This document shows positions 41,798-60,434 of a stretch of DNA of 64,000 nucleotides, in pieces. Each line of letters begins with the position of its first letter. Position 1 is the first letter of the stretch. This DNA comes from a virus (Duplodnaviria; Caudoviricetes). The stretch lies in IMG/VR virus record IMGVR_UViG_3300033551_000003, positions 815 to 64,814 of that record. One strand, written 5' to 3'. Under the pieces are notes generated by a model, which saw nothing but the letters and a program-made list of their open reading frames with translations, made no database searches and was not told the origin of the DNA. The position numbers were made by a program, and so were the translations under genes.

Positions 41798-41862
41798 GCG
41801 AAACCGGGATAAAACCCGGTCTGCCGGTAAAGACCCTAGTCCGGCACCGATGAGCAAGGGTC
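41798..41862 (+). ncRNA. Type II hammerhead ribozyme HH1 (core CCGAUGA variant)
   Basis: GC-GAAA-CCGGG/CCCGG-UC-stem I-CCGAUGA-GC; GACCCU/AGGGUC pseudoknot. Confidence 0.8.
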
Positions 41863-41878
41863 AATTAGGAGCAAAATC

Positions 41879-42121
41879 ATGACTACCAAATCTGATGACG
41901 TTTACGGCCTCATTACCTGGGGCGTGGACGTGAAGGAATTCAATACCTTGAAAGCCGCCCAAAAGGCACTCGCTACCAGCGAGTATTCGGCGGCGATCTT
42001 CAAAGGTCCGCGTGGCGAAGTCTGCGGTGGCGAGCAAATCGCCGAGAACGACAAGCCCGAGGCCCCTTGGGAACTGACGAGGAAGACCATCGCGAAGAAC
42101 CTCAAGGTCGAGCGAATCTGA
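41879..42121 (+). CDS. Hypothetical early protein
   Basis: AGGAG RBS directly after HH1. Confidence 0.7.
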   Translation: MTTKSDDVYGLITWGVDVKEFNTLKAAQKALATSEYSAAIFKGPRGEVCGGEQIAENDKPEAPWELTRKTIAKNLKVERI

Positions 42122-42135
42122 CCTCGCCCCAAGAA

Positions 42136-42201
42136 GCGAAACCGGGGTACGCCCCGGTCTGCCGGTAATGATCCTAGTCCGGCACTGATGAGCACGGATC
42201 A
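42136..42201 (+). ncRNA. Type II hammerhead ribozyme HH2
   Basis: GAAA, GUC, CUGAUGA; UGAUCC/GGAUCA pseudoknot. Confidence 0.9.
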
Positions 42202-42216
42202 ATTAGGAGAATACCA

Positions 42217-42414
42217 ATGAAAGTCGTTCTATTTAACGCAACAAAGACGTTGATGACTGAACTTCATATACCAGTCAACAGAAAGGCTGAGATAATTGTC
42301 TATGATGGAGCAGTATTTGTGCTCGCTGAGACTCCGGCAGAGATTAAGGAAATCTGCTACGTCCAAGAGTCCAACACTGTATTCGTAGACCCTTATGAGC
42401 AGCCTGTACATTGA
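42217..42414 (+). CDS. Hypothetical early protein
   Basis: RBS after HH2. Confidence 0.7.
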   Translation: MKVVLFNATKTLMTELHIPVNRKAEIIVYDGAVFVLAETPAEIKEICYVQESNTVFVDPYEQPVH

Positions 42415-42480
42415 GCGAAACCGGGGTAAAACCCGGTCTGCCGGTAATGATCCTAGTCCGGCACTGATGAGCACGGATCA
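42415..42480 (+). ncRNA. Type II hammerhead ribozyme HH3
   Basis: Near-identical to HH2. Confidence 0.9.
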
Positions 42481-42495
42481 ATTAGGAGAATTAAA

Positions 42496-42753
42496 ATGAC
42501 TTATTATCCAAGATTGAGTGTTACCACACCAATTAGTCTTGAGTACCTCAACAACCACGTACCCCAAAAGGTCGTGAAGGAGGTCCTCAAAAAGTTCGGA
42601 ATAAGCGATCAGGTGATAAGCCTGGTCGACTGGAACAAATCGCGATTCCCCGGAGTCGCGTTTGAGCAGGCCTGCCCACGCTTGAAGAACGTGTGGGACT
42701 GGCCGACCTATGACACACCATTTATGAGCAGCCTGAAGCGAAACCGGGTTTAA
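42496..42753 (+). CDS. Hypothetical early protein
   Basis: RBS after HH3; stop in the stem III hairpin of HH4. Confidence 0.7.
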   Translation: MTYYPRLSVTTPISLEYLNNHVPQKVVKEVLKKFGISDQVISLVDWNKSRFPGVAFEQACPRLKNVWDWPTYDTPFMSSLKRNRV

Positions 42754-42802
42754 CCCGGTCGCCAGAGAAACTGATCCCACCCTGGCCTGATGAGCAGGGA
42801 TC
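42738..42802 (+). ncRNA. Type II hammerhead ribozyme HH4
   Basis: GAAA/GUC/CUGAUGA; GAUCCC/GGGAUC pseudoknot. Confidence 0.88.
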
Positions 42803-42821
42803 GTTTTAGGAGAAGAAAACC

Positions 42822-42965
42822 ATGACTACGAAGGAAAAGGTTGTTACCGCGTCCACCGCTCTGGGCGGATTCCTGGCCTACATCATCGTGGCGACCACCA
42901 TCAATCAGGTCATCGCGAGTGTGGTCAACGGAGCCGTCCAGAAGTACGTGTTCAAGACGAGCTAA
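42822..42965 (+). CDS. Small membrane protein (47 aa)
   Basis: MTTKEKVVTASTALGGFLAYIIVATT...; RBS after HH4; below the ORF-track cutoff. Confidence 0.6.
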   Translation: MTTKEKVVTASTALGGFLAYIIVATTINQVIASVVNGAVQKYVFKTS

Positions 42966-42986
42966 CAACGGGGCCAGGAGGCCCCC

Positions 42987-43051
42987 GGCCACAATGATCC
43001 ACCTCTACGCGGTGTGGCTAGAAACGGTTCAAGGGAACCGGCTAACGGATC
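42987..43051 (+). ncRNA. HDV-like ribozyme 1
   Basis: P1 GGCCAC/GUGGCU with G.U at position 1, P2 GAUCC/GGAUC, P3 ACC/GGU, L3 UCUACGC, P4 CGGUUC/GAACCG, J4/2 GCUAA. Confidence 0.8.
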
Positions 43052-43068
43052 AATTTAGGAGAAGTAAA

Positions 43069-43341
43069 ATGTGCAATACACACTTAACGCAGTTTAAGCT
43101 GCGTTGCACCCGAGGGGATGTTGATATTTTTGACGGCCCCGATGGAGTGTACTGGCAGAGTATCATCTACCGAGAGGAAGACGGGTACTTCTGCGAGCCG
43201 TGCAACGGCCCCTTCAAAACGGCGGCCGAAGCACTAATGCATGCCTACCCCATCTTGGAGCATACCAGATGGCTGTTGGCAAACGATGTTTTCGAATTCA
43301 AAGCCTACAATGAAGTGGGCACAACCAAAATGGGGGAATAA
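43069..43341 (+). CDS. Hypothetical early protein
   Basis: AGGAG RBS after the HDV-like ribozyme; start MCNTHL. Confidence 0.65.
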   Translation: MCNTHLTQFKLRCTRGDVDIFDGPDGVYWQSIIYREEDGYFCEPCNGPFKTAAEALMHAYPILEHTRWLLANDVFEFKAYNEVGTTKMGE

Positions 43342-43348
43342 ACCCCCT

Positions 43349-43413
43349 GGCAGCAACGATCCACCTCTACGTGGTGTGGCTAGAAACGGTTCAAGGGAAC
43401 CGGCTAACGGATC
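43349..43413 (+). ncRNA. HDV-like ribozyme 2
   Basis: Near-identical copy; P1 5' strand GGCAGC has one mismatch. Confidence 0.7.
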
Positions 43414-43430
43414 AATTTAGGAGAAACCAG

Positions 43431-43583
43431 ATGACTAAGAATAGTCGTGAGACCAAGCCGCAGAAGCGGGAGGATCTCAAACTGGAAAGACCAGATTACA
43501 CGCTTTCGGTGAAGGAAGAGCAAAAAAGCCCAACCGAGATATGGATGAGGCTTACATTCAAACCAAAGCGAAACCCGCAGTAA
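43431..43583 (+). CDS. Small hypothetical protein
   Basis: RBS after ribozyme; stop within HH5 stem III. Confidence 0.6.
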   Translation: MTKNSRETKPQKREDLKLERPDYTLSVKEEQKSPTEIWMRLTFKPKRNPQ

Positions 43584-43632
43584 GCGGGTCTGCCGGTAAA
43601 GACCCTAGTCCGGCACTGATGAGCAAGGGGTC
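43568..43632 (+). ncRNA. Type II hammerhead ribozyme HH5
   Basis: Stem III CCCGC/GCGGG covaries; CUGAUGA. Confidence 0.9.
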
Positions 43633-43647
43633 AATTAGGAGAAACCA

Positions 43648-43911
43648 ATGCCTACAGAAATCGAAGTTGAGTTCGACTGTGACAGCGAACTGGTGACCAG
43701 AGCCAAGGCTGTCGTTGGAGCCTTCGGAGGTGTGGTTTTGGACGTATTCCACGTTACCGCTGATAATGAGATCGTTGACGATCAGCCAGCGGATGATGGG
43801 TGGACTTTTATGTCCTTTAACATTTCCGACGACCAGGCCCATAACGCCGCCGTAGCTTTGAGCGCTGCCGGGTACGACGTGGTCGTCCACGTGTACCCAG
43901 CTGAGCACTAA
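43648..43911 (+). CDS. Small acidic alpha/beta protein
   Basis: RBS after HH5. Confidence 0.7.
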   Translation: MPTEIEVEFDCDSELVTRAKAVVGAFGGVVLDVFHVTADNEIVDDQPADDGWTFMSFNISDDQAHNAAVALSAAGYDVVVHVYPAEH

Positions 43912-43912
43912 A

Positions 43913-43972
43913 AGTCGAAACCGGGAACCAACCCGGTCGCCTGGTTAGAACCAGGCCTGATGAGACTTAACC
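43913..43972 (+). ncRNA. Type II hammerhead ribozyme HH6
   Basis: GUC-GAAA...GUC-GCCUGG/CCAGGC-CUGAUGA-GAC. Confidence 0.9.
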
Positions 43973-43992
43973 CAAATTTAGGAGAATGAAAC

Positions 43993-44241: not shown

Positions 44242-44247
44242 AAAATC

Positions 44248-44316
44248 GTCGAAACCGGGATAAAACCCGGTCTGCCGGTGAGAGACCCTATTCCGGCACT
44301 GATGAGACACGGGTCT
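44248..44316 (+). ncRNA. Type II hammerhead ribozyme HH7
   Basis: Full core; AGACCC/GGGUCU pseudoknot. Confidence 0.9.
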
Positions 44317-44330
44317 TTTAGGAGAATACC

Positions 44331-44582: not shown

Positions 44583-44584
44583 AA

Positions 44585-44646
44585 GTCGAAACCGGGCTAG
44601 TCCCGGTCGCGTGGAGATGGTCTCCCACGCCTGATGAGACAGACCA
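44585..44646 (+). ncRNA. Type II hammerhead ribozyme HH8
   Basis: Stem I GCGUGG/CCACGC; UGGUCU/AGACCA pseudoknot. Confidence 0.9.
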
Positions 44647-44664
44647 ATTTAGGAGAACACAAAC

Positions 44665-45315: not shown

Positions 45316-45325
45316 AGCCCCAAAT

Positions 45326-45391
45326 GTCGAAACCGGGCTTAGTCCCGGTCGTCGGGAACCTGATCCTACCCGGCTTGAAAAGACAGGATCA
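45326..45391 (+). ncRNA. Type II hammerhead ribozyme HH9 (core UUGAAAA, U3-A8)
   Basis: Stems and pseudoknot intact; compensatory 3-8 pair. Confidence 0.8.
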
Positions 45392-45414
45392 TAACCTCCA
45401 CTTAGGAGAGAACT

Positions 45415-45765: not shown

Positions 45766-45769
45766 GCGT

Positions 45770-45849
45770 GTCGAAACCCTGGGAGGGGGCAATCCCCCTC
45801 CCTTGGTTTGCTGGAACCTGGTCCTACCAGCACTGATGAGACAGGACCA
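45770..45849 (+). ncRNA. Type II hammerhead ribozyme HH10 (GUU site, long stem III)
   Basis: CUGAUGA core; UGGUCCU/AGGACCA pseudoknot. Confidence 0.8.
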
Positions 45850-45864
45850 ATTTAGGAGTTTCAC

Positions 45865-46233: not shown

Positions 46234-46236
46234 ACC

Positions 46237-46302
46237 GTCGAAACCGGGGTACACCCCGGTCTGCTGGAACCTGGTCCTACCAGCACTGAGGAGACAGGAC
46301 CA
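46237..46302 (+). ncRNA. Type II hammerhead ribozyme HH11 (CUGAGGA)
   Basis: Full core and pseudoknot. Confidence 0.9.
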
Positions 46303-46573
46303 ATTTAGGGGATACACAATGATTCGTGATATCGTAACTGAACTGGCCGCGTTGTGCTACATCGTGGCCATCACTGGCGCCATCGTACTAACGGTGGTTG
46401 CCTTCCTCGGACAATAGAGGAGAAGACAAAATGGAAATTCGAATGAGCCCTGCGGACTTGGAGATGGTAATTGATGCACTGGCGTATGCACGTTGGTACT
46501 CTGCCACTAGCAAAGAGGAAGAGGACGGCTACTCCGTGCTTATCGAACATCTCAAGCTCCAACAGGACAACCA

Positions 46574-46639
46574 GTCGAAACCGGGGGAATAACCCCGGTC
46601 TGTCAGGAATGAGCGCCCTGGCACCGATGAGACAGCTCA
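46574..46639 (+). ncRNA. Type II hammerhead ribozyme HH12 (CCGAUGA variant)
   Basis: UGAGC/GCUCA pseudoknot. Confidence 0.8.
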
Positions 46640-46657
46640 AAATTAGGAGAATGAAAC

Positions 46658-47152
46658 ATGAATACCGCTGTACAAGACAGCACACCAAACACAATAGCCA
46701 CCATCACAAAGTGGTGGCAAGGCATAATCGAGGCGAGTACTGCGTGTCTGTTCGGCTGGGCGTTCAGATTCCCAGACGTGCAGGAAGCAGTACTCATTCG
46801 CATCAAGTGTGGGACACCGTTGGGCGAGGCCCTTGACAGCTTTGTCGAAGACAAGCTCGTCGACCTCGACGCTCGCGACATCAACGGGTTCGAGGAGTCC
46901 GTCGAAAAGATAGTCGATTCGGCTGTCGACGACGCTCTCAAGAACCTGGACGACGACATCGACACCGCCGTGGCAAACGCGCTCGGCGATATTGATGAGA
47001 AGGTCGAAGATGCTGTCGAGGAAGCATTCAATAAACTGGCTATCACCGATACGGTGACACGGATTATTGAAGGCATGGCCGCGAATAAGGACCACGACCT
47101 GGTCCGGCTGATCGCCCACCGTGTCTCTGAATTGTCGAAACCGGGGGAGTAA
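46658..47152 (+). CDS. Acidic helical-repeat protein
   Basis: Repeats (AVDDAL, AVANAL, AVEEAF); stop in HH13 stem III. Confidence 0.7.
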   Translation: MNTAVQDSTPNTIATITKWWQGIIEASTACLFGWAFRFPDVQEAVLIRIKCGTPLGEALDSFVEDKLVDLDARDINGFEESVEKIVDSAVDDALKNLDDDIDTAVANALGDIDEKVEDAVEEAFNKLAITDTVTRIIEGMAANKDHDLVRLIAHRVSELSKPGE

Positions 47153-47198
47153 CCCCGGTCTGCCAGAGATGAGCGCCTGGTACTGATGAGACTGCTCA
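47134..47198 (+). ncRNA. Type II hammerhead ribozyme HH13
   Basis: Full core. Confidence 0.88.
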
Positions 47199-47216
47199 AA
47201 TTAGGAGGTAAGACCA

Positions 47217-47648: not shown

Positions 47649-47651
47649 CCA

Positions 47652-47719
47652 GTCGAAACCGGGGTAAGTCCCCCGGTCACCTGGAAACCGGTCCTACCAG
47701 GTCTGAGGAGACAGGACCG
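47652..47719 (+). ncRNA. Type II hammerhead ribozyme HH14 (CUGAGGA)
   Basis: Stem I ACCUGG/CCAGGU; CGGUCCU/AGGACCG pseudoknot. Confidence 0.88.
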
Positions 47720-47728
47720 ATTAGGAGA

Positions 47729-48513: not shown

Positions 48514-48520
48514 ACAAAAA

Positions 48521-48584
48521 GTCGAAACCGGGGTACGCCCCGGTCTGCTGGATTGAGCATTCCAGCACCGATGAGACTGCTCAA
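48521..48584 (+). ncRNA. Type II hammerhead ribozyme HH15 (CCGAUGA variant)
   Basis: UUGAGCA/UGCUCAA pseudoknot. Confidence 0.8.
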
Positions 48585-48598
48585 ATTAGGAGAATGAA

Positions 48599-49129
48599 AT
48601 GACAATAACTGGTAAAGCACCAGAACTAGCCAACCTCAATGATGAGGTAGACTTAAGAGATGCTACAATATTCTGCGACAGCGCGGCTGGGGTCTATATC
48701 CCGCAGCGCTTCGCACGAGAAGTGAGACGTGAGCTCGTTACCGGTGTGAGCAGCAAGGACTATGAAGTCCTTGAGGCCGGACCGGATCACGAGCACTACT
48801 GGGACGCCTGGGCAGACGTCCTGGATAACGCTTTGATTAACGACCCAGTCCGGGGCGAGTGCCACCTGCACCAAGACCAGGACCTTTGGGTCGTGCCCAC
48901 CGAGAATCGAAGGATCATGGGTTATTGGTTCCACCCGATGACCCAGGAGGACTGGGATGGTTTTGCCGGAGCAGACGCAGGAAGTTGGATACATCACTGC
49001 TCGGACGGCCGGACCATTCTGATCTACTCGCCGCAGTCCGGCCTGCTGTCTGAGATCGTTGTCAAGGATGACGGTCTCAGCGCAGAGATCCTATGGACGC
49101 CCCAACAGATAACCTCTCAAGGGCGGTGA
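48599..49129 (+). CDS. Hypothetical protein
   Basis: DSAAGVYIPQRF, GPDHEHYWDAW; RBS. Confidence 0.7.
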   Translation: MTITGKAPELANLNDEVDLRDATIFCDSAAGVYIPQRFAREVRRELVTGVSSKDYEVLEAGPDHEHYWDAWADVLDNALINDPVRGECHLHQDQDLWVVPTENRRIMGYWFHPMTQEDWDGFAGADAGSWIHHCSDGRTILIYSPQSGLLSEIVVKDDGLSAEILWTPQQITSQGR

Positions 49130-49194
49130 GTCGAAACCGGGATAAAACCCGGTCTGCCGGATTGAGCATTCCGGCACTGATGAGACTGCTCAAT
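49130..49194 (+). ncRNA. Type II hammerhead ribozyme HH16
   Basis: Full core and pseudoknot. Confidence 0.9.
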
Positions 49195-49208
49195 TTAGGA
49201 GACAAAAC

Positions 49209-49490
49209 ATGATGCAATTGAGAGTGACCTTAAACGGCACCGATCGCAACCCTTGGCATAGGTGGGGGTTAACGCAAAACCCGTTCCCCCAGCTGGGCAA
49301 GGCAGAGTACGACGCCCATTGCTTAAGGCTTCAGTCCTTAGGCGGGGACCCAATTCCCGACACCGATTACATTCGTAAGGTGTTGGAGGGTTGGAGCCCG
49401 GAGTTTGTTGAACTCTGCTGCCAACGCTTTAAGAAGGGTGCGATCGTACAGTTCCACGTGGCGTTTAACGAGTCGAAACTGGGGGTGTAG
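49209..49490 (+). CDS. Hypothetical protein
   Basis: RBS; stop in HH17 stem III. Confidence 0.7.
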   Translation: MMQLRVTLNGTDRNPWHRWGLTQNPFPQLGKAEYDAHCLRLQSLGGDPIPDTDYIRKVLEGWSPEFVELCCQRFKKGAIVQFHVAFNESKLGV

Positions 49491-49536
49491 CCCCCAGTCT
49501 GCCGGATTGAGCATTCCGGCACTGATGAGACTGCTC
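49472..49536 (+). ncRNA. Type II hammerhead ribozyme HH17
   Basis: Stem III CUGGGGG/CCCCCAG covaries. Confidence 0.9.
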
Positions 49537-49555
49537 CAACTTAGGAGATTAAAAC

Positions 49556-49791: not shown

Positions 49792-49962
49792 ATGGAAGTC
49801 AGAGAGCATACCTGCTTAACCTGCGAGCACCAATGGGTGAGCCCCGTGGTGTTCTCGCAGTATACGCAGAACCTGAGCGGTGAACGCACAGAGTTCTGCC
49901 CAAAATGCAACGGCCGGACCGTGTGGTCTGGCCCAGCCAAAACTGTCGAAACCGGGGATTAA
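49792..49962 (+). CDS. Small Zn-ribbon protein (56 aa)
   Basis: CLTC...CPKC; GGAGG RBS; stop in HH18 stem III. Confidence 0.55.
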   Translation: MEVREHTCLTCEHQWVSPVVFSQYTQNLSGERTEFCPKCNGRTVWSGPAKTVETGD

Positions 49963-50010
49963 CCCGGTCTGCTGGAACCCGGTCCTACCAGCACTGATGA
50001 GACAGGACCG
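49945..50010 (+). ncRNA. Type II hammerhead ribozyme HH18
   Basis: Full core and pseudoknot. Confidence 0.9.
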
Positions 50011-50019
50011 ATTAGGAGA

Positions 50020-50637
50020 ATGGAAATGAAAACAGTGAGATTAGGTTTTGATGTACGACTCGCATGCGCGCGGGCCTGGGAGCTCATTTGGGCTTCCAAG
50101 CTCGAGGCACGTGCCAAGGAGAAACATCCACGATGGGCAGGGGCGACGTACTACACCACTGCCAACGACATGGTCAATCAGGTACGAGCCTTCGCGTCAT
50201 GTCACGCCGAGGGCAAGCCCTGGACCGACAAGGTCGTGTACGGCAAGTGGTTTGGGTCTCCCGTAAGATTGCCCTTCAGACTGGAGACAGTCGTTCGCGA
50301 CTGGCTCTTCGAGCAGGCCAGAAACGGCAAGCTCGAGTATCACAATTTTGGACGGGGCCACATCAGTGGTGCCCGCTTCCGCCCGTACGGTGAGCCGATG
50401 GGGCCATCAGAGATAAAGACGATGGTCAACAATCTAAAGCAGCGTACCGATCCCAAACCCAAACCCAAGCATTATAGTAAGCAGGGGATACATGGTCGCC
50501 CGCTTTGCACCGCCCGTCAGCGCAGCGGGTTCTATAGTCGTCCGGACCCCCACGTTCGGACTACCAAGGACCTCCAAGAAGTGACGTGCCCGCGCTGCCA
50601 GAAGGCGCTGGCCTTAATCGCAGAAACCGGGAGGTAA
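50020..50637 (+). CDS. Hypothetical protein with C-terminal Zn-binding motif
   Basis: H...C...VTCPRC; stop in HH19 stem III. Confidence 0.7.
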   Translation: MEMKTVRLGFDVRLACARAWELIWASKLEARAKEKHPRWAGATYYTTANDMVNQVRAFASCHAEGKPWTDKVVYGKWFGSPVRLPFRLETVVRDWLFEQARNGKLEYHNFGRGHISGARFRPYGEPMGPSEIKTMVNNLKQRTDPKPKPKHYSKQGIHGRPLCTARQRSGFYSRPDPHVRTTKDLQEVTCPRCQKALALIAETGR

Positions 50638-50685
50638 TCCCGGTCTGCCGGATTGAGCATTCCGGCACTGATGAAGCTGCTCAAT
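50620..50685 (+). ncRNA. Type II hammerhead ribozyme HH19
   Basis: Core intact, stem II weak. Confidence 0.8.
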
Positions 50686-50700
50686 TTAGGAGAACCACAA

Positions 50701-50994: not shown

Positions 50995-51368
50995 AGCGAA
51001 CCAAGCTAGGCGTGGAAATCCCGGTCCAACGGGATCACCGCCGCAACACCATAAATAAACTGGCCAGAACCGAAGTGAGGGGCCAGGACAACCCCCCTAG
51101 CCCGAGCTACGGCCCGGGTTTTAGGCGGATGAAGGCGCGTTTGGGAGCCTCTAAGATGGAGGACATGCGCCAGGATACCATCGCGCAGCAATTCAAGAAG
51201 CGCGAGGAGGTGTCTGGCGAGTCCGTTCCCGAGCGTGACCGCTCATCCTACAAGGATTATCCAACCCCGCGCCAGCGCGCCGTACGCCGAATGGCTGAAG
51301 AAGCTATCGGCAAGGTGCTTGGTACGGTTGAGCCCCATACTGACAAAAAGTCGAAACGCCGCAAGTGA
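50991..51368 (+). CDS. Basic hypothetical protein
   Basis: ATGA coupling; stop in HH20 stem III. Confidence 0.6.
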   Translation: MKRTKLGVEIPVQRDHRRNTINKLARTEVRGQDNPPSPSYGPGFRRMKARLGASKMEDMRQDTIAQQFKKREEVSGESVPERDRSSYKDYPTPRQRAVRRMAEEAIGKVLGTVEPHTDKKSKRRK

Positions 51369-51417
51369 GCGGCGTCGCCTGGAACCCGGTCCTACCAGGC
51401 CTGACGCGACAGGACCG
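51350..51417 (+). ncRNA. Type II hammerhead ribozyme HH20 (CUGACGC; A9C, possibly impaired)
   Basis: Stems intact, core deviates. Confidence 0.65.
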
Positions 51418-51431
51418 ATTAGGAGACAAGC

Positions 51432-52007: not shown

Positions 52008-52010
52008 AAA

Positions 52011-52073
52011 GTCGAAACCGGGGTACGCCCCGGTCTGCCAGAGATGAGCTACTGGCACTGATGAGATAGCTCA
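52011..52073 (+). ncRNA. Type II hammerhead ribozyme HH21
   Basis: UGAGCUA/UAGCUCA pseudoknot. Confidence 0.9.
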
Positions 52074-52088
52074 AATAGGAGAAACAAA

Positions 52089-52361: not shown

Positions 52362-52363
52362 CC

Positions 52364-52427
52364 GTCGAAACCGGGAACCAACCCGGTCTGCTGGATTGAG
52401 CATTCCAGCACCGATGAGACTGCTCAA
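52364..52427 (+). ncRNA. Type II hammerhead ribozyme HH22 (CCGAUGA variant)
   Basis: Stems and pseudoknot intact. Confidence 0.8.
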
Positions 52428-52442
52428 CTTAGGAGAACTAAC

Positions 52443-52877: not shown

Positions 52878-52880
52878 AGA

Positions 52881-52946
52881 GTCGAAACCGGGCTCAAACC
52901 CGGTCTGCTGGAAACCGGTCCTACCAGCACTGATGAGACAGGACCG
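52881..52946 (+). ncRNA. Type II hammerhead ribozyme HH23
   Basis: Full core and pseudoknot. Confidence 0.9.
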
Positions 52947-52961
52947 ATTAGGAGATAGAAA

Positions 52962-53240
52962 ATGGCAAAAGAGGTAAGATACTATACTGCAGGGGCCGCC
53001 ATAAAGGCGGTTCTACTGCAAGTTGACTTATACTCACTGGAGCAGTGTAACCCTAACGAGGTTGGGGACTACCTGCAGTTCGAGTACGACGACTATGGAA
53101 AATGCTATACCGTAACTGAGCAAATCGAAGGTATGGCCTTCGCAACAAGTCACGCGTATGGACCTGAATTCGACAGGAAGTTCGTCGTACGCTCTATTGT
53201 TGGTGCCCTTATGGCAGAATACATGGGCATCTACAACTGA
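52962..53240 (+). CDS. Hypothetical protein
   Basis: RBS after HH23. Confidence 0.7.
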   Translation: MAKEVRYYTAGAAIKAVLLQVDLYSLEQCNPNEVGDYLQFEYDDYGKCYTVTEQIEGMAFATSHAYGPEFDRKFVVRSIVGALMAEYMGIYN

Positions 53241-53306
53241 GTCGAAACCGGGCTGAGTCCCGGTCGTCGGGAACCTGATCCTACCCGGCTTGAAGAGACA
53301 GGATCA
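53241..53306 (+). ncRNA. Type II hammerhead ribozyme HH24 (UUGAAGA variant)
   Basis: Close relative of HH9. Confidence 0.75.
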
Positions 53307-53329
53307 TAAATCTTAGGAGAATCAAAATA

Positions 53330-54214: not shown

Positions 54215-54218
54215 GGCT

Positions 54219-54290
54219 GTCGAAACCAAAGGGGGGTATACTCCCTTTGGTCGGTGGGAACTGACCTACCCACCCTGATGAGACAGGTCA
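54219..54290 (+). ncRNA. Type II hammerhead ribozyme HH25
   Basis: Stem III CCAAAGGG/CCCUUUGG; UGACCU/AGGUCA pseudoknot. Confidence 0.9.
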
Positions 54291-54304
54291 TTTAGGAGAT
54301 GTAA

Positions 54305-54664
54305 ATGGCTGGAAACCCCAACAGCGCCCGTGCTCGCTTCAAAGCCTATTTGAAGGAGCATGGAGAGGAGGCCGCCCTAAAGTTCGGGGCGGAAATAGGG
54401 ATGCAACCTGCCCGCATAAAGCGGCTTATTCGCGTATTCACCGGCCAGGCCCCGATCAAGCAGAAACCCTCCACCGTGGAGGTGACTGTGGAACCCGTTA
54501 GGTTTGGTCGGTTTAAGCCGCAGGTTTACCTATTTGGAGACAAGACCTTGGTTGCTCGGTATGTAGCTAAAGGCCCCGAGCAGAGTGAGGTTAAGTTCCC
54601 GAATGGTAACGTGCAGACGGTTGACAATGATTGGCTAACGCCTTTCGAAACCGAGGAGGAGTAA
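54305..54664 (+). CDS. Hypothetical protein (C-terminal SH3/KOW-like strands)
   Basis: RBS; stop in HH26 stem III. Confidence 0.65.
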   Translation: MAGNPNSARARFKAYLKEHGEEAALKFGAEIGMQPARIKRLIRVFTGQAPIKQKPSTVEVTVEPVRFGRFKPQVYLFGDKTLVARYVAKGPEQSEVKFPNGNVQTVDNDWLTPFETEEE

Positions 54665-54715
54665 CTCCTCGGTCACTGGGGTGCTGATCCGACCCCGGTC
54701 TGACGAGATAGGATC
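54644..54715 (+). ncRNA. Type II hammerhead ribozyme HH26 (CUGACGA), 5' of tasA
   Basis: Stem III CCGAGGAG/CUCCUCGG; GAUCC/GGAUC pseudoknot. Confidence 0.85.
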
Positions 54716-54733
54716 CTTAGGAGACAAAGAAAG

Positions 54734-56068: not shown

Positions 56069-56070
56069 GT

Positions 56071-56137
56071 GTCGAAACCGGAGGTACGCCTCCGGTCACC
56101 GGGAACCTGATCCTACCCGGTATGATTAGACAGGATC
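56071..56137 (+). ncRNA. Type II hammerhead ribozyme HH27 (AUGAUUA, A3-U8) inside the TIGR array, no RBS
   Basis: Stem III CCGGAG/CUCCGG, stem I ACCGGG/CCCGGU, GAUCCU/AGGAUC pseudoknot. Confidence 0.8.
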
Positions 56138-56151
56138 TGGCCTACCCGTTT

Positions 56152-56754: not shown

Positions 56755-56756
56755 GT

Positions 56757-56823
56757 GTCGAAACCGGGGTACGCCCCGGTCGTCGGGAACCCGATCCTAC
56801 CCGACCTGATGAAGACAGGATCG
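56757..56823 (+). ncRNA. Type II hammerhead ribozyme HH28
   Basis: GUCGGG/CCCGAC stem I; CGAUCCU/AGGAUCG pseudoknot. Confidence 0.88.
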
Positions 56824-56853
56824 CAACTTAGGAGATAAACAAGGAAAACCACA

Positions 56854-57900: not shown

Positions 57901-57915
57901 CAAATCCCTGACCAT

Positions 57916-57980
57916 GTCGAAACCGGGGTACGCCCCGGTCGCCTGGAACCCGGTCCTACCAGGCCTGATGAGACAGGACC
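57916..57980 (+). ncRNA. Type II hammerhead ribozyme HH29
   Basis: Full core and pseudoknot. Confidence 0.9.
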
Positions 57981-57996
57981 AATTAGGAGAACCAAT

Positions 57997-58170
57997 ATGC
58001 CGACACTTCGCTTCAACGATGGCGTTAGCATCAACACGGATGGACACCTTCGCATCATTCACCTGAAGGACGGCTACTACGTGGTGGGCGAGGGCTTGTG
58101 CATGCCCGTCGACACCCGGGCCGAGGGCGAGGAGTTCATCGCCGAGGAGAAGAAGCGCAACGCCAAGTGA
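57997..58170 (+). CDS. Small hypothetical protein (57 aa)
   Basis: MPTLRFNDGVSINTDG...; RBS after HH29. Confidence 0.65.
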   Translation: MPTLRFNDGVSINTDGHLRIIHLKDGYYVVGEGLCMPVDTRAEGEEFIAEEKKRNAK

Positions 58171-58177
58171 AACGTAT

Positions 58178-58251
58178 GTCGAAACTAGGGGGCCGAAAGG
58201 CCTCCTAGTCGGTGAGGAACTGACCGGCCTCGCCCTGATGAAGACAGGTCA
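58178..58251 (+). ncRNA. Type II hammerhead ribozyme HH30
   Basis: Stem III CUAGGGGGCC-GAAA-GGCCUCCUAG; UGACC/GGUCA pseudoknot. Confidence 0.88.
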
Positions 58252-58265
58252 TTTAGGAGAATAGA

Positions 58266-59771
58266 ATGCAGACAATCGAGATAAACAACCCCTTATTGGC
58301 ACGAGTAGTACGCGCGAGAGCGTTCCTACTCCGTAGCCACCCGTTCTTTGGAAACCTGGCCATGCGGCTAAGGATCCGGGAACACAATGAGCTTAGAGTC
58401 AAAACCATGGCAACGGACGGGACATTCCTGTACTGGTGCCGTGAGTTCTTGGAGAAAGTTAGCGACAGCATGCTTTTGTTTGCTGTCGCCCACGAGGTAC
58501 TCCACTGCGCGCTGTGCCATCATACCCGTCGTGGTACGAGGGACCCGCTGCTGTGGAATATCGCGTGCGATCACGTCGTTAACCTGCTGCTAAGGGCCGC
58601 AGGGTTCCGTCCACCGGACTGGGCCTACTGCGACCCCAAGTATACTGGTCTGAATGCGGAACAAGTTTACCGCCTTCTGTACGAGGAACGTAAGCAGCAG
58701 CAACAGCAACAACCGGAGCCAACGCCCCAACCTGGTCAGGACGACCAGCAGGCGACCGGCTCCGGCGACCAAGACCCCGATCAGGAGGCCGACCCCAAGG
58801 GCGGCTCCCCCGGGGATGACGATGAAGAAGGTGACGAAGGAGAAGAGCAATGCGGTTCCAACGGTGGAGCTTCATCCGACCAGGATTCCAAGTCTGGTTC
58901 GGACAGCGAGGATGGGACGTCCGGTACCTCAACAGAGGACGATGCGCCCCAGGATGCTGGCTCTTCTTCCGAGGGCGGGTCTGCGGGGAGTCCCACATCC
59001 GACTCTTCGGATGGGACGCCTGGCCGATCTGGTCTCCCCCAATCCCATGGCGATCCTGGCGGATGCGGCGAAGTTCTAGACGCCGCGCCGTCCTATGATG
59101 ACACCAAATTGTCAGAAGCCGAGGGTGAGTGGCAGACCTACGTCCGTCAAGCTATCAACGTTGCCCGCAAAGCGGGGGAAGGCCGGTTACCGGGCTTCCT
59201 CGAGGAAGTAATCGACACGTTGAACGACCCCCGCACCGATTGGCGTCAAGCCCTTCGGGAGTGGGTGGACTACTCTAATACCAAGGACTACACCTGGACG
59301 ACACCGAACCGCCGTATGTTCGCGTTGGGGTACATAACCCCCGGCATGGTCAGCGATGGACTTAACAAGGTGGCGTTTATCATCGACTCCTCGGGGTCTG
59401 TTCACACCGAGTGGTTGAAGAAGTTCGGCGGTGAAGCCCAAGCCGCCCTCGACGATGGGGCAATCGACAACGCAATTGTAATCTTTGCCGATGATGGCAT
59501 CCACCGTATTGAAGAATACAGTAAGGGTGACATCATCGACTGGACTGTCCAGGGGCGCGGCGGAACTAGCTTCAGCCCCGCCCTGGGTTGGCTGATGGAG
59601 AACGTTCCCGATCTGTCGGGGGCGGTCTACTTTACCGACCTGGACAGCACGGACTTTGGACCGCAGCCGACCTTCCCACTTCTGTGGGCGGCCTATGGTC
59701 CCGATCCGAATGAACTGCAGAGGTTAATTGCGCGGTTGCCGTTCGGCGAGTGTATCGAACTGGTCGACTAA
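58266..59771 (+). CDS. DUF2201-type metallopeptidase-VWA protein
   Basis: PFFG, TMATDG, AHEVLH, WNIACD, acidic linker, IDSSGS MIDAS, GRGGTSF, YFTD. Confidence 0.88.
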   Translation: MQTIEINNPLLARVVRARAFLLRSHPFFGNLAMRLRIREHNELRVKTMATDGTFLYWCREFLEKVSDSMLLFAVAHEVLHCALCHHTRRGTRDPLLWNIACDHVVNLLLRAAGFRPPDWAYCDPKYTGLNAEQVYRLLYEERKQQQQQQPEPTPQPGQDDQQATGSGDQDPDQEADPKGGSPGDDDEEGDEGEEQCGSNGGASSDQDSKSGSDSEDGTSGTSTEDDAPQDAGSSSEGGSAGSPTSDSSDGTPGRSGLPQSHGDPGGCGEVLDAAPSYDDTKLSEAEGEWQTYVRQAINVARKAGEGRLPGFLEEVIDTLNDPRTDWRQALREWVDYSNTKDYTWTTPNRRMFALGYITPGMVSDGLNKVAFIIDSSGSVHTEWLKKFGGEAQAALDDGAIDNAIVIFADDGIHRIEEYSKGDIIDWTVQGRGGTSFSPALGWLMENVPDLSGAVYFTDLDSTDFGPQPTFPLLWAAYGPDPNELQRLIARLPFGECIELVD

Positions 59772-59778
59772 TGGGTGA

Positions 59779-59843
59779 GTCGAAACCGGGGTACGCCCCG
59801 GTCTGCTGGAACCTGGTCCTACCAGCACTGAGGAGACAGGACC
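59779..59843 (+). ncRNA. Type II hammerhead ribozyme HH31 (CUGAGGA)
   Basis: Near-identical to HH11. Confidence 0.9.
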
Positions 59844-59858
59844 GATTAGGAGAATGAA

Positions 59859-60140
59859 ATGAACAAGAGCAAAGACAAGGAGCGGGTAGCTTGGATGCAC
59901 GCCGCCATCGAACTAAACGCCAAGCGTGAAGGCTGGTCGTTATTCGAGTGCGATGACGGTCGCCTACGCATCCAACGCCTGGATTTTCCATACGACTCTA
60001 CGGGACGCCCCATCGATCCACTATTTGACAGCGACGAGTCCGCCGTGCAATTCGTCAAGGACCTCGCTGATACAGGGTCGTCCTTTCACCAAGTTACGCT
60101 TCGTCTGCACGGGATGAAGGTGTCGAAATCTGGAGAGTAA
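59859..60140 (+). CDS. Hypothetical protein
   Basis: AKREGWSLFEC..IQRLD..FDSDESAVQFV; RBS. Confidence 0.7.
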   Translation: MNKSKDKERVAWMHAAIELNAKREGWSLFECDDGRLRIQRLDFPYDSTGRPIDPLFDSDESAVQFVKDLADTGSSFHQVTLRLHGMKVSKSGE

Positions 60141-60142
60141 AA

Positions 60143-60364
60143 ATGCACACGTACCGACATTCCTTCGATGCGTTAGAAGAGTTCCCAAGTAAATGGGAAA
60201 CCGGCCTTTGGATTACCCACAAGGACGGTAATTATTGGCGTACGGTCGCCAGCTTTGACGCCGAGTGGAAGGCAGCGTTGTACGCCTCCTTCCTCAACGG
60301 CGGTAAGCCACCCATCGGTGTGCTGAACGAGCTCTTCGCAGGCGCCAATATCAGCTTCGAATGA
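60143..60364 (+). CDS. Small phage protein
   Basis: AALYASFLNGG motif; GGAG RBS. Confidence 0.6.
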   Translation: MHTYRHSFDALEEFPSKWETGLWITHKDGNYWRTVASFDAEWKAALYASFLNGGKPPIGVLNELFAGANISFE

Positions 60365-60366
60365 AA

Positions 60367-60434
60367 GTCGAAACCGGGGGTGTAACCCCGGTCACGGATG
60401 GGGTGGTTCCCCACCGTCTGATGAAGACAAACCA
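60367..60434 (+). ncRNA. Type II hammerhead ribozyme HH32
   Basis: Core CUGAUGA; UGGUU/AACCA pseudoknot. Confidence 0.82.

What the first reader, a model, noticed from the sequence alone, without database searches (positions are those of the whole stretch)
41798..60434. A ~19-kb phage operon punctuated by 32 hammerhead ribozymes, one in front of almost every gene
Seen: 32 copies of GUC-GAAA-[stem III]-GUC-[stem I]-CUGAUGA-GAC-[pseudoknot strand], usually followed by (A/U)UUAGGAG and an ATG. Stems I and III and the loop-I pseudoknot differ in sequence between copies but keep their pairing (e.g. CCGGG/CCCGG, CCCGC/GCGGG, CCAAAGGG/CCCUUUGG; GGUCCU/AGGACC, UGAGCA/UGCUCA, GAUCC/GGAUC). Established: this is the conserved core and type II topology of hammerhead ribozymes. 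Inference: the phage cuts one long early transcript into monocistronic mRNAs without protein factors. Each product would start with a 5'-OH hairpin and end in a hairpin, like T7 RNase III sites but host-independent. I know of isolated phage hammerheads but not of genome-scale gene-by-gene punctuation like this.
Basis: partly seen in the sequence, partly recalled or inferred. Interest (0 to 1): 0.95.

Follow-up and report, generated by a model that had tools for sequence, protein, structure and literature searches.

The report
Phage operon cut by 34 ribozymes
An uncultured soil phage places a small self-cutting RNA in front of almost every gene of a 19-kb operon, the largest example I could find of an arrangement described in phages in 2011 and still unexplained.

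Summary
There are exactly 32 type II hammerhead motifs, all on the + strand between 41796 and 60437. Their stems I, II and III and the loop-I/tail pseudoknot covary. Thirty-one are followed directly by UAGGRG and an ATG.

Two probable HDV-like ribozymes fill the same slot at two further gene boundaries. By my ORF calls, 33 of 37 ORFs are preceded by a ribozyme. No ORF crosses a cleavage site. Nine ORFs stop inside the stem III loop.

The reading that ribozymes process a long transcript into gene-sized RNAs with hairpin ends is well supported by anatomy. It is not shown: no RNA run was listed.

The arrangement is not new in kind. Perreault et al. 2011 (PMC3088659) described multiple hammerheads flanking single phage genes and proposed this processing. 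Other IMG/VR phages carry arrays of about 3-10 with the same stop-ribozyme-RBS-ATG design. This scan has already noted arrays of 7-22 on other DNA (unchecked notes).

New here are the scale, the two ribozyme classes sharing one slot, and a perfect 41-nt inverted repeat bracketing the operon.

The parts
41796..41865 (+). Hammerhead 1. Cut after 41821. Core CCGAUGA (U4C). Lies before the first ORF (41879).
   Evidence: Parse. R1 69.7 bits. Rfam 29.5 bits.
42134..42203 (+). Hammerhead 2. Cut after 42159. Core CUGAUGA.
   Evidence: R1 76.1 bits. Rfam 38.3 bits.
42413..42482 (+). Hammerhead 3. Cut after 42438. Core CUGAUGA.
   Evidence: R1 75.5 bits. Rfam 35.8 bits.
42736..42806 (+). Hammerhead 4. 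Cut after 42760. The upstream ORF stops in the stem III loop.
   Evidence: R1 61.4 bits. Rfam 32.7 bits.
42970..42985 (+). GC hairpin (6 bp, 4-nt loop) ending 1-2 nt before the predicted cut of HDV-like ribozyme A.
   Evidence: Read from the sequence. Inferred to stand in for stem III as the 3' hairpin of the upstream RNA.
42987..43052 (+). HDV-like ribozyme A. The cut is predicted just 5' of G42987 or G42988. It is followed by AAUUUAGGAG and ATG 43069.
   Evidence: RF02682 34.3 bits (gathering score 44), E 1e-4 in a 501-nt search and 5.4e-3 in a 26-kb search. A 6-bp P2 (42995-43000 with 43047-43052) is seen by eye and is not scored by the model.
43332..43347 (+). GC hairpin (5 bp) with the upstream stop codon in its loop. 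It ends 1-2 nt before the cut of HDV-like ribozyme B.
   Evidence: Read from the sequence. ORF 43069-43341.
43349..43414 (+). HDV-like ribozyme B. It has one mismatch in P1. It is followed by AAUUUAGGAG and ATG 43431.
   Evidence: RF02682 28.1 bits, E 0.0028.
43566..43635 (+). Hammerhead 5. Cut after 43590. The upstream ORF stops in the stem III loop.
   Evidence: R1 54.4 bits. Rfam 36.0 bits.
43913..43978 (+). Hammerhead 6. Cut after 43938. Stem I is a long perfect hairpin. My parse found no pseudoknot of 5 bp or more; a 6-bp alternative is seen by eye only.
   Evidence: R1 59.1 bits. No Rfam hit.
44247..44318 (+). Hammerhead 7. Cut after 44272.
   Evidence: R1 66.2 bits. Rfam 28.4 bits.
44584..44649 (+). 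Hammerhead 8. Cut after 44608. Best Rfam match.
   Evidence: Rfam 48.0 bits. R1 64.9 bits.
45325..45402 (+). Hammerhead 9. Cut after 45350. Core UUGAAAA, in which the C3-G8 pair is replaced by U3-A8.
   Evidence: R1 73.8 bits. No Rfam hit. U3-A8 covariation in nature is reported in PMC3088659 (section read).
45769..45852 (+). Hammerhead 10. Cut after 45808. GUU site. Long stem III with an internal mismatch.
   Evidence: R1 66.4 bits. No Rfam hit.
46236..46305 (+). Hammerhead 11. Cut after 46261. Core CUGAGGA. Followed by UAGGGG.
   Evidence: R1 85.6 bits. Rfam 30.5 bits.
46573..46643 (+). Hammerhead 12. Cut after 46600. Core CCGAUGA. The upstream ORF stops in the stem III loop.
   Evidence: Rfam 42.1 bits.
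47133..47201 (+). Hammerhead 13. Cut after 47160. The upstream ORF stops in the stem III loop.
   Evidence: Rfam 40.0 bits.
47651..47721 (+). Hammerhead 14. Cut after 47678. Core CUGAGGA.
   Evidence: R1 79.7 bits. No Rfam hit.
48520..48586 (+). Hammerhead 15. Cut after 48545. Core CCGAUGA. Follows a 279-nt ORF-free spacer that holds a short repeat array.
   Evidence: R1 74.8 bits.
49129..49195 (+). Hammerhead 16. Cut after 49154.
   Evidence: Rfam 43.1 bits. R1 77.9 bits.
49471..49541 (+). Hammerhead 17. Cut after 49499. The upstream ORF stops in the stem III loop.
   Evidence: Rfam 37.4 bits.
49944..50012 (+). Hammerhead 18. Cut after 49969. The upstream ORF stops in the stem III loop.
   Evidence: Rfam 33.0 bits.
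50619..50686 (+). Hammerhead 19. Cut after 50645. Stem II is irregular (an extra or mismatched A). The upstream stop lies in the stem III loop.
   Evidence: Rfam 38.2 bits.
51349..51419 (+). Hammerhead 20. Cut after 51376. Core CUGACGC (A9 replaced by C), so activity is doubtful.
   Evidence: Rfam 28.8 bits. R1 64.3 bits.
52010..52075 (+). Hammerhead 21. Cut after 52035.
   Evidence: Rfam 45.2 bits.
52363..52429 (+). Hammerhead 22. Cut after 52388. Core CCGAUGA.
   Evidence: R1 68.9 bits. No Rfam hit.
52880..52948 (+). Hammerhead 23. Cut after 52905.
   Evidence: Rfam 36.8 bits. R1 85.1 bits.
53240..53313 (+). Hammerhead 24. Cut after 53265. Core UUGAAGA (U3.G8 wobble).
   Evidence: R1 77.5 bits. 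No Rfam hit.
54218..54292 (+). Hammerhead 25. Cut after 54252. 10-bp stem III.
   Evidence: R1 60.7 bits.
54643..54717 (+). Hammerhead 26. Cut after 54674. Core CUGACGA. The upstream stop lies in the stem III loop. Precedes the 338-aa ORF.
   Evidence: Rfam 26.1 bits.
56070..56144 (+). Hammerhead 27. Cut after 56097. Core AUGAUUA (A3-U8). This is the only copy with no SD or ORF behind it. It sits inside the 36-nt repeat array.
   Evidence: R1 67.5 bits. No Rfam hit.
56756..56828 (+). Hammerhead 28. Cut after 56781. Extra A after A9. Lies at the 3' end of the repeat array and before the MoxR-like ATPase ORF.
   Evidence: R1 75.5 bits.
57915..57983 (+). Hammerhead 29. Cut after 57940.
   Evidence: R1 86.4 bits. 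Rfam 33.3 bits.
58177..58253 (+). Hammerhead 30. Cut after 58210. Extra A after A9. Precedes the DUF2201 ORF.
   Evidence: R1 56.6 bits.
59778..59846 (+). Hammerhead 31. Cut after 59803. Core CUGAGGA.
   Evidence: Rfam 32.4 bits. R1 84.7 bits.
60366..60437 (+). Hammerhead 32. Cut after 60393. Extra A after A9. It is 100% identical in a strain whose downstream gene differs by about 15%.
   Evidence: R1 48.6 bits.
41718..41758 (.). Left arm of a perfect 41-nt inverted repeat. It ends 38 nt before hammerhead 1. Whether it belongs to the system is not established.
61540..61580 (.). Right arm of the 41-nt inverted repeat. It starts 115 nt after the stop at 61425. It is also present, unchanged, in three metagenome contigs.

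Best explanation
The + strand region 41.8-60.9 kb is transcribed as one or a few long RNAs. As each intergenic ribozyme emerges from the polymerase it folds and cuts itself.

A type II hammerhead is open at stem II, and this fixes the shape of the products. The upstream product ends in the stem III hairpin with GUC and a 2',3'-cyclic phosphate. The downstream product begins with a 5'-OH at the base of the stem I hairpin. That hairpin is locked to the 3' tail by a pseudoknot, and the Shine-Dalgarno sequence follows 2-5 nt later.

The result would be about 34 RNA units. Most carry one ORF. Four carry two tightly coupled ORFs. Two or three carry, or consist of, a 36-nt repeat array.

Each unit would have a defined, structured 5' end without triphosphate, a hairpin 3' end, and a ribosome-binding site insulated from upstream sequence. 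All of this would happen without host RNases. At two junctions an HDV-like ribozyme does the same job. Because it leaves nothing on the upstream product, a separate GC hairpin sits just before its cut site.

Shown: the motifs, their covariation, and their placement relative to stops and starts. Inferred from established hammerhead chemistry: the product ends. Inferred: cleavage in vivo, a single transcription unit, and the effect on stability and translation.
For: - There are 32 hammerhead motifs, all on one strand and confined to this operon. Twenty of the 32 are seen by the independent Rfam model.
- All four helices covary. 15 of 22 pairs change on both sides, 0 of 500 shuffles reach the observed value, and slid controls score far lower. 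Stem I positions 1, 2 and 4 each show 4-5 pair types, mostly Watson-Crick with some G-U.
- GAAA, G5 and A6 are invariant. The C3-G8 pair is replaced by U-A in one copy and A-U in another.
- Thirty-one of 32 copies are followed by UAGGRG. The ATG lies 6-10 nt beyond it in 30 of these and 19 nt beyond in one.
- In 0 of 37 ORFs does the reading frame cross a cleavage site. Nine ORFs stop 7-10 nt before the cut, in the stem III loop.
- The four ORFs without a ribozyme start within 14 nt of, or overlap, the preceding stop.
- The hammerheads occupy 2,272 of 18,642 nt, or 12% of the operon.
- A different ribozyme class plus an added hairpin sits in the same slot.
- There is no excess of sigma-70-like promoters (8 found against 10.2 expected). 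I saw no convincing + strand terminator inside the operon.
- Six other arrays printed from unrelated phages show the same stop-hammerhead-RBS-ATG design with different RBS motifs.
- A hammerhead lies directly upstream of MoxR-like ATPase homologues of only 23-28% identity in 4 loci.
- Hammerhead 32 is unchanged in a strain whose next 452 nt differ at 69 positions.
- Published tandem phage hammerheads cleave in vitro and in E. coli (PMC3088659, passages read).
Against: - No RNA data exist for this phage. No RNA holder was listed, so nothing can be said either way on expression.
- Eight of 32 cores are non-consensus: four with U4C, one with A9C, one with a U3.G8 wobble, and two with a compensated 3-8 pair. 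Some of these may be slow or dead.
- Twelve of 32 copies are not recognised by the Rfam model at the thresholds used.
- Nested-only folding recovers stems I and III in the minimum-free-energy structure for only 20 of 32 copies.
- Predicted SD accessibility rises only slightly on cleavage, from 0.43 to 0.50 (Wilcoxon p 0.008, no pseudoknots modelled).
- Whether a 5'-OH end stabilises or destabilises RNA depends on the unknown host's RNases.
- The promoter and the 'early' timing are not established.
- The zero-difference block around hammerhead 32 could be a recombination block.
Confidence: 0.7

Rival explanations
1. The ribozymes act as tuned or regulated decay and timing elements. Cleavage exposes 5'-OH and unprotected ends that shorten RNA life, as in glmS, or weak-core copies cut slowly. 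Ribozyme strength would then set the relative level or timing of each gene product rather than simply protecting it.
For: Eight of 32 cores deviate from the consensus in different ways, which would give a spread of rates. Perreault et al. suggest that slower phage variants may be regulated (PMC3088659 discussion). Nine upstream ORFs end inside stem III, so a terminating ribosome could compete with folding.
Against: Both product ends are built as stable hairpins. An extra hairpin is added where the HDV-like ribozyme would leave none. This looks like protection, not exposure. Twenty-four of 32 cores are canonical.
Confidence: 0.12
2. The repeats are mainly DNA-level elements. They would be selfish, or would serve as ~70-nt recombination linkers that shuffle, duplicate and delete gene cassettes. 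Ribozyme activity would then be incidental or lost.
For: Stem III and stem I/pseudoknot variants are combined mosaically. There are 24 stem III and 23 stem I variants in 32 distinct copies, and one stem III variant occurs with six different stems I. Neighbouring copies are often alike. Assemblies break at the copies.
Against: Catalytic residues are invariant and the helices covary. All copies lie on one strand. Placement between stop and SD is exact to a few nucleotides. An unrelated ribozyme class occupies the same slot. Recombination may well occur in addition.
Confidence: 0.07
3. Cleavage is followed by ligation. Each excised unit carries the 3' half of one hammerhead at its 5' end and the 5' half of the next at its 3' end. 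Because nearly all copies share the same stem II, the two ends could rebuild a complete hammerhead. They could then be joined by the ribozyme itself or by a host RtcB-type ligase, giving circular or end-joined mRNAs.
For: Stem II is GUC/GAC in 22 of 32 copies by the column counts and GC/GC in the first five copies. The ends have the chemistry needed for ligation. The possibility was raised in PMC3088659.
Against: The authors of PMC3088659 looked for spliced or circular products in their systems and found none. Uniform stem II is also explained by the conserved G10.1-C11.1 requirement and by duplication. A 3-bp stem II closed by a whole ORF is weak.
Confidence: 0.06
4. Most copies are inactive relics, and the stretches work simply as intergenic hairpins plus a conserved RBS leader.
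For: No activity data exist. Twelve of 32 copies are not seen by Rfam.
Against: Hairpins alone would not keep GAAA, G5, A6, the GUH triplet and a covarying pseudoknot in 32 diverged copies.
Confidence: 0.05

Closest known systems
Clustered hammerhead ribozymes flanking single genes or short gene blocks in prophages (Perreault et al. 2011, PMC3088659; restated in the 2017 review PMC6155905)
   Same: The ribozyme type is the same: type II with a loop-I/tail pseudoknot and a 2-3 bp stem II. The copies lie on one strand, between small non-conserved phage ORFs. The proposed role is the same, namely processing long phage transcripts into operon- or gene-length mRNAs. Natural U3-A8 core covariation is also shared.
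   Different: The text I read describes triple arrangements that were tested. I could not see the figures or supplements, so I do not know the largest published array. Here there are 32 hammerheads plus 2 HDV-like ribozymes covering 33 of 37 ORFs over 19 kb. The coupling to the SD is fixed, and some stops lie inside stem III.
RiboJ-type synthetic ribozyme insulators (original paper recalled, not retrieved; use of RiboJ seen only in the search listing)
   Same: A self-cleaving hammerhead is placed between upstream sequence and the RBS. The mRNA then starts at a fixed, structured 5' end whatever lies upstream.
   Different: RiboJ is engineered, derives from a satellite-RNA hammerhead and has an added hairpin. 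The copies here are natural type II ribozymes with a pseudoknot, used serially inside an operon. They also supply the 3' hairpin of the preceding RNA.
RNase III processing sites between phage T7 early genes (recalled from general knowledge, no call)
   Same: Intergenic structured sites cut a long early transcript into gene-sized mRNAs that end in hairpins.
   Different: T7 depends on a host protein enzyme and leaves 5'-phosphate and 3'-OH ends. Here the RNA would cut itself and leave 5'-OH and 2',3'-cyclic phosphate ends.
tRNA punctuation of mitochondrial polycistronic transcripts (recalled, no call)
   Same: Almost every gene boundary carries a structured RNA that marks where the precursor is cut.
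   Different: The punctuation marks there are functional tRNAs cut by RNase P and RNase Z. Here they are self-cleaving and have no other known role.
HDV-like ribozymes: drz-Fpra (Rfam RF02682), and theta ribozymes of gut phages (PMC10879173; search listing and start of abstract only)
   Same: The two elements at 42987 and 43349 align over the whole RF02682 model, with conserved L3 and J4/2. Phage HDV-like ribozymes are already known to process RNAs.
   Different: Both score below the Rfam gathering threshold. By the title and abstract I saw, theta ribozymes are linked to phage tRNAs. The two here sit between protein genes, directly before an SD.

Membership tests
Hammerhead ribozyme, type II (Rfam RF02276) | Conserved catalytic core: C3 U4 G5 A6 N7 G8 A9, G12 A13 A14, the A15.1-U16.1 pair, and an H17 cleavage nucleotide | tested here: met
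   GAAA, U16.1, G5 and A6 are present in 32 of 32 copies. H17 is C in 31 and U in 1. The full heptamer consensus is met in 24 of 32. Eight are variants: 4 with U4C, 1 with A9C, and 3 with a changed 3-8 pair, of which 2 are compensated.
Hammerhead ribozyme, type II (Rfam RF02276) | Three-way junction with closed stems I and III and an open stem II (type II topology) | tested here: met
   Stem III positions 1-5 pair in 31-32 of 32 copies. Stem I positions 1-6 pair in 30-32 of 32. Stem II has 2-3 bp. There are changes on both sides in 4 of 6 stem III pairs and 5 of 6 stem I pairs.
Hammerhead ribozyme, type II (Rfam RF02276) | Tertiary contact: a pseudoknot between loop I and the 3' tail | tested here: met
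   At least 5 bp in 31 of 32 copies, against a mode of 3-4 bp with shuffled tails. Five of 7 pseudoknot pairs change on both sides.
Hammerhead ribozyme, type II (Rfam RF02276) | Score at or above Rfam's gathering threshold (37 bits) | tested here: inconclusive
   Seven of 32 in the whole-window search and 8 of 32 in the 26-kb search. Twenty of 32 are detected at looser thresholds. Twelve of 32 are not detected.
Hammerhead ribozyme, type II (Rfam RF02276) | Mg2+-dependent self-cleavage 3' of H17 | not testable with these tools
   No RNA run was listed. Needs a bench assay.
HDV-like ribozyme (Rfam RF02682, drz-Fpra type) | Nested double pseudoknot (P1, P1.1, P2, P3, P4) with cleavage at the 5' end of P1 | tested here: inconclusive
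   P1, P3 and P4 are in the cmscan alignment. A 6-bp P2 is seen by eye in both copies. P1.1 was not assessed. Copy B has a mismatch in P1.
HDV-like ribozyme (Rfam RF02682, drz-Fpra type) | Conserved L3 and J4/2 with the catalytic C | tested here: met
   UCUACG in L3 and GCUAA in J4/2 align to the consensus in both copies.
HDV-like ribozyme (Rfam RF02682, drz-Fpra type) | Score at or above Rfam's gathering threshold (44 bits) | tested here: not met
   34.3 and 28.1 bits. I therefore call them 'probable HDV-like' and do not file them as members.
Clustered gene-flanking phage hammerheads (Perreault et al. 2011) | Several hammerheads on one strand flanking individual genes in phage DNA | tested here: met
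   Thirty-one of 37 ORFs are directly preceded by a hammerhead. The record is an IMG/VR virus record with phage replication genes.
Clustered gene-flanking phage hammerheads (Perreault et al. 2011) | Cleavage of the native polycistronic RNA at every copy | not testable with these tools
   Shown for three other arrangements in the paper, not for this one.

The most novel reading that the evidence does not exclude
Every excised unit carries complementary halves of two neighbouring hammerheads at its ends, and nearly all copies share one stem II. Each unit could therefore rebuild a complete hammerhead across its own ends and be closed into a circle, or held end-to-end. The operon would then produce a set of circular or closed-loop mRNAs and guide-array RNAs. 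The 41-nt leader/trailer complement would close the outermost pair of ends.
Probability: 0.06. Interest if true: 0.9.

Novelty: new member of a known kind. Interest (0 to 1): 0.55.

Why it matters
The role of the many self-cleaving ribozymes in bacteria and phages is still called an open question (PMC6155905, 2017; PMC10085705, 2023; passages read). This operon is the densest and most regular natural case I could find. It has 34 ribozymes in 19 kb.

Each ribozyme is welded to a ribosome-binding site. Upstream stops never pass the cut. A second ribozyme class, with an added hairpin, sits in the same slot. That anatomy points specifically to self-made, hairpin-ended, insulated mRNA units, and it gives testable predictions for every junction.

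The operon also offers 32 mutually distinct natural hammerhead/pseudoknot variants from one genome, including rare core variants. This is a ready-made panel for studying ribozyme rate and orthogonality.

Tried and rejected
RNA evidence. The look-up of sequencing runs listed 17 runs, none on record as RNA (no RNA holder listed). Cleavage in vivo therefore could not be examined. Logan DNA contigs laid on the stretch confirm the sequence in pieces. They break at the hammerhead repeats, so their ends say nothing about RNA ends.

Folding.
- Nested-only minimum-free-energy folds recover at least 90% of the stem I and III pairs in 20 of 32 copies, with a mean z of -2.5. In the rest the stem I + III pairs are only partly recovered; I assume, without having inspected the folds, that the pseudoknot strands pair instead.
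- SD accessibility, cleaved against uncleaved, gave only a small shift. I treat that as inconclusive.

Relatives.
- The DNA polymerase has no isolate relative above 36% identity.
- One hammerhead used as a BLAST query found nothing in isolate phages.
- Single-protein searches of viral contigs with the MoxR-like ATPase and with the 338-aa protein found no close relatives.

Other ribozyme classes in other arrays. None was found at the gathering threshold in 14 loci, nor at E <= 0.05 in 5 loci, where 29 of 29 hits were Hammerhead_II.

Flanking inverted repeats in other phages. Zero of 4 records have a comparable repeat around their arrays.

Inversion of the bracketed segment. Three metagenome contigs show only the window's orientation at the right arm, but all three start at hammerhead 32, so this is weak.

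Papers. Searches found no paper describing an operon-wide array of this size.

Full report
**What the window is.** The window is bases 815-64814 of a 64,814-bp IMG/VR virus record, classed as linear and about 63% complete. Large ORFs on the minus strand (1-40 kb) include:
- a family A DNA polymerase with a UDG domain,
- a DnaB-like helicase, a primase-like protein and an SNF2 helicase,
- a thymidylate-synthase-like protein and an amino-acid:DNA transferase.

The finding lies in a + strand block of small ORFs. Only two of ten tested ORFs there have clear Pfam families: a weak MoxR/AAA hit at 56854 and DUF2201 at 58266. The best isolate relative of the polymerase is 36% identical. This is an uncultured phage far from any studied one.

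- A strict pattern (CGAAAC, stem, GUC, stem, YGAUGA) matches 22 times against 0.12 expected, and 0 of 100 shuffles reach 22.
- I parsed copies by anchoring on the conserved core only, then read the stems from those anchors. This gave 32 copies, all on the + strand, from 41796 to 60437.
- A covariance model built from the 32 (which therefore match it by construction) was run without filters over the whole window on both strands. It finds those 32 at 48.6-86.4 bits and nothing else above 12.7 bits. The element is confined to this one operon and strand.
- The independent Rfam model RF02276 scores 7 copies above its gathering score. It scores 18 at looser thresholds in each of two searches, 20 distinct copies in all.
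- The remaining 12 rest on my parse. Several of them have long stems, an extra A after A9, or core variants.

**Structure and covariation.** Counting from the core anchors:
- Stem III positions 1-5 pair in 31-32 of 32 copies.
- Stem I positions 1-6 pair in 30-32 of 32, with 4-5 pair types (mostly Watson-Crick, some G-U) at positions 1, 2 and 4.
- The loop-I/tail pseudoknot has at least 5 bp in 31 of 32 copies. Shuffled tails mostly give 3-4 bp.

On a MAFFT alignment made without any structure input, the four helices pair in 88.8% of cells against 72.8% after shuffling. Fifteen of 22 pairs show changes on both sides, and 0 of 500 shuffles reach the observed values. Sliding the partners by 1-3 columns drops pairing to 25-51%. 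The copies are paralogues, so cells are not independent events. The slid controls keep relatedness and still fail.

GAAA, G5 and A6 are invariant. The core heptamer is canonical in 24 of 32 copies. Four copies have U4C, one has A9C, and three have a changed C3-G8 pair (U-A, A-U, U.G). U3-A8 covariation in natural hammerheads is already published (PMC3088659, section read).

**Placement.**
- Thirty-one of 32 copies are followed within 0-2 nt of the parsed tail by UAGGAG (UAGGGG once). The ATG follows 6-10 nt later in 30 cases and 19 nt later in one.
- With my ORF calls, which include unverified short ORFs, 37 ORFs lie between 41879 and 60943. Thirty-one are preceded by a hammerhead, 2 by an HDV-like element and 4 by nothing.
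- Those four start 2-14 nt after, or overlap, the preceding stop. They look translationally coupled.
- The stop of the upstream ORF lies 2-15 nt before the ribozyme in 16 cases and abuts its first bases in 3.
- It lies inside the stem III loop, 7-10 nt before the scissile bond, in 9 cases.
- It is far away in 3 cases where an ORF-free repeat array intervenes.
- One copy, the first, has no upstream ORF.
- No ORF crosses a cut site.
- The hammerheads take up 2,272 of 18,642 nt, or 12%. That is a large investment for a phage genome.

**The two HDV-like elements.** At 42988-43052 and 43350-43414, Rfam's RF02682 model aligns end to end at 34.3 and 28.1 bits. These are below its threshold of 44, with E of 1e-4 and 0.0028 in a 501-nt search. 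L3 and J4/2 match the consensus.

A 6-bp P2 pseudoknot, which the model does not score, is present in both copies (by eye). Both are followed by AAUUUAGGAG and an ATG, exactly as the hammerheads are. An HDV-type ribozyme cuts at its own 5' edge and so leaves no structure on the upstream RNA. In both cases a separate GC hairpin ends 1-2 nt before the predicted cut, and in one case the upstream stop codon lies in its loop.

This is the most informative detail for function. The slot appears to require a self-cleaver of any class plus a hairpin at the end of the upstream product. I call these elements probable, not proven. In five other phage arrays no second ribozyme class was seen (29 of 29 hits were Hammerhead_II).

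**One transcription unit?**
- The promoter/terminator scan shows no excess of sigma-70-like sites (8 against 10.2 +/- 3.0).
- Many of the terminator-like hits are minus-strand matches lying on hammerhead stem III. I saw no convincing + strand terminator inside the operon.
- An AT-rich, promoter-like stretch lies near 41280-41350 (by eye).
- The whole block is bracketed by a perfect 41-nt inverted repeat, at 41718-41758 and 61540-61580. If both arms are transcribed they would form a leader/trailer duplex, as in rRNA operons. That would fit a single ~20-kb precursor.
- The repeat could equally be a DNA-level feature, such as inversion sites, cassette ends or operators.
- Three metagenome contigs, two of them from a strain about 87-95% identical, keep the right arm unchanged and in the same orientation. 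They all begin at hammerhead 32, so they cannot test inversion.
- Zero of 4 other phage records have such a repeat around their arrays. I leave the repeat unexplained.

**Mechanism.** Given established hammerhead chemistry, each cut leaves a 2',3'-cyclic phosphate after C17 (U17 in copy 10) and a 5'-OH on the next base. In a type II ribozyme this means two things.
- The upstream RNA ends in the stem III hairpin.
- The downstream RNA starts with the stem I hairpin, tied by the pseudoknot, with the SD a few bases beyond.

Even the first gene has a ribozyme in front of it (hammerhead 1). The function is therefore not only to separate cistrons but also to define the 5' end. The design resembles the engineered RiboJ insulator and, in outcome, the RNase III sites of T7 (both recalled, not retrieved). 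I put 0.7 on 'self-processing into insulated, hairpin-ended units'. Whether the ends stabilise or destabilise the RNAs depends on the unknown host.

**How new is it?**
- Perreault et al. 2011 state that multiple hammerheads often flank individual genes or short gene blocks in prophages. [quoted passage not shown]
- A 2017 review repeats this and calls the role an open question. A 2023 paper says the reason for the association is still unknown.
- Running my model over 132 fetched loci gave at most about 9-10 copies per locus.
- Five whole records gave 4, 8, 8, 8 and 6 copies with my model. With Rfam they gave 3, 8, 5, 7 and 6, against 18 for this record at the same threshold. These five were chosen because they had many hits.
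- Their copies show the same stop-hammerhead-RBS-ATG layout with other RBS motifs.
- Four loci have a hammerhead directly before a MoxR-like ATPase only 23-28% identical to the one here.
- Earlier notes of this scan report arrays of 7, 9, 10, at least 12 and 22 in other phages. One note mentions up to about 25 (I did not check these).

This is therefore a further member of a known kind, and the largest I could find. It has three features not mentioned in the text I read: a second ribozyme class in the same slot, ribozymes at the edges of and inside a 36-nt repeat array, and the bracketing inverted repeat.

**Limits.**
- There are no RNA data.
- The phage is uncultured and its host unknown.
- The short ORFs are unverified.
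- My covariance model is circular for the window's own copies and biased when counting in other phages.
- Figures and supplements of the key paper were not visible to me.

Noticed in passing
window 41718-41758 and 61540-61580: A perfect 41-nt inverted repeat brackets the whole ribozyme operon, with 19,781 nt between the arms. There are only these two copies in the window. The right arm is unchanged in three metagenome contigs. No comparable repeat surrounds hammerhead arrays in 4 other phage records. It could be an RNA leader/trailer duplex, inversion sites or cassette ends; this is undecided.
   Followed up: partly
window 55750-56755 and 48241-48520 (+ strand); about 10-12 kb (- strand): Arrays of two alternating 8-9-nt repeat words with a modal 36-nt period. 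There are 19 strict AGYGYRCC matches in 55.7-56.8 kb. Similar clusters lie on the minus strand at 10-12 kb. The array follows a 338-aa ORF (54734-55750). That ORF has no Pfam hit itself, but it has 595 homologues, some carrying PF02371 (IS110-type transposase domain). Earlier notes read this as a TIGR-Tas-like guide system. Hammerhead 27 lies inside the array, and hammerheads 15 and 28 lie at array ends.
   Followed up: partly
L176 and L177 (metagenome contigs), equivalent to window 60352-64000: These come from a related strain 87-95% identical to the window. It has about 275 extra bases near window position 60930. Hammerhead 32, the SD and the first codons (127 nt) are identical, while the next 452 nt differ at 69 positions.
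   Followed up: partly
window 45415-45765: A 116-aa Lys/Pro/Ala-rich ORF containing a 27-nt tandem repeat at 45495-45569. Many foreign contigs lay partly on this low-complexity stretch.
   Followed up: no
window 23503-30411 (- strand): A thymidylate-synthase-like protein with DUF3310, an amino-acid:DNA transferase (PF18724) and a CitMHS/SLC13-type transporter lie close together. This suggests a thymidine hypermodification module with an unusual phage-borne transporter.
   Followed up: no
window 3-1991 (- strand): A 663-aa ORF that is open at the window edge has an ADP-ribosyltransferase domain hit (PF03496, 23.6 bits, just over the cut-off).
   Followed up: no
window 19626-22223 (- strand): A family A DNA polymerase fused to an N-terminal uracil-DNA-glycosylase-superfamily domain and a 3'-5' exonuclease domain.
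   Followed up: no
L038:1828-1919: In another phage locus that has four hammerheads, Rfam reports a short tmRNA-model hit (50.7 bits, threshold 47) between the hammerheads. It may be a tRNA-like element in the same kind of slot.
   Followed up: no
L008 (IMG/VR locus), 9146-13226: A nine-hammerhead array whose downstream leaders carry CACACA-rich sequence and AAAGGCACACACAUG instead of a classical SD. This suggests a host with a different translation-initiation signal.
   Followed up: no
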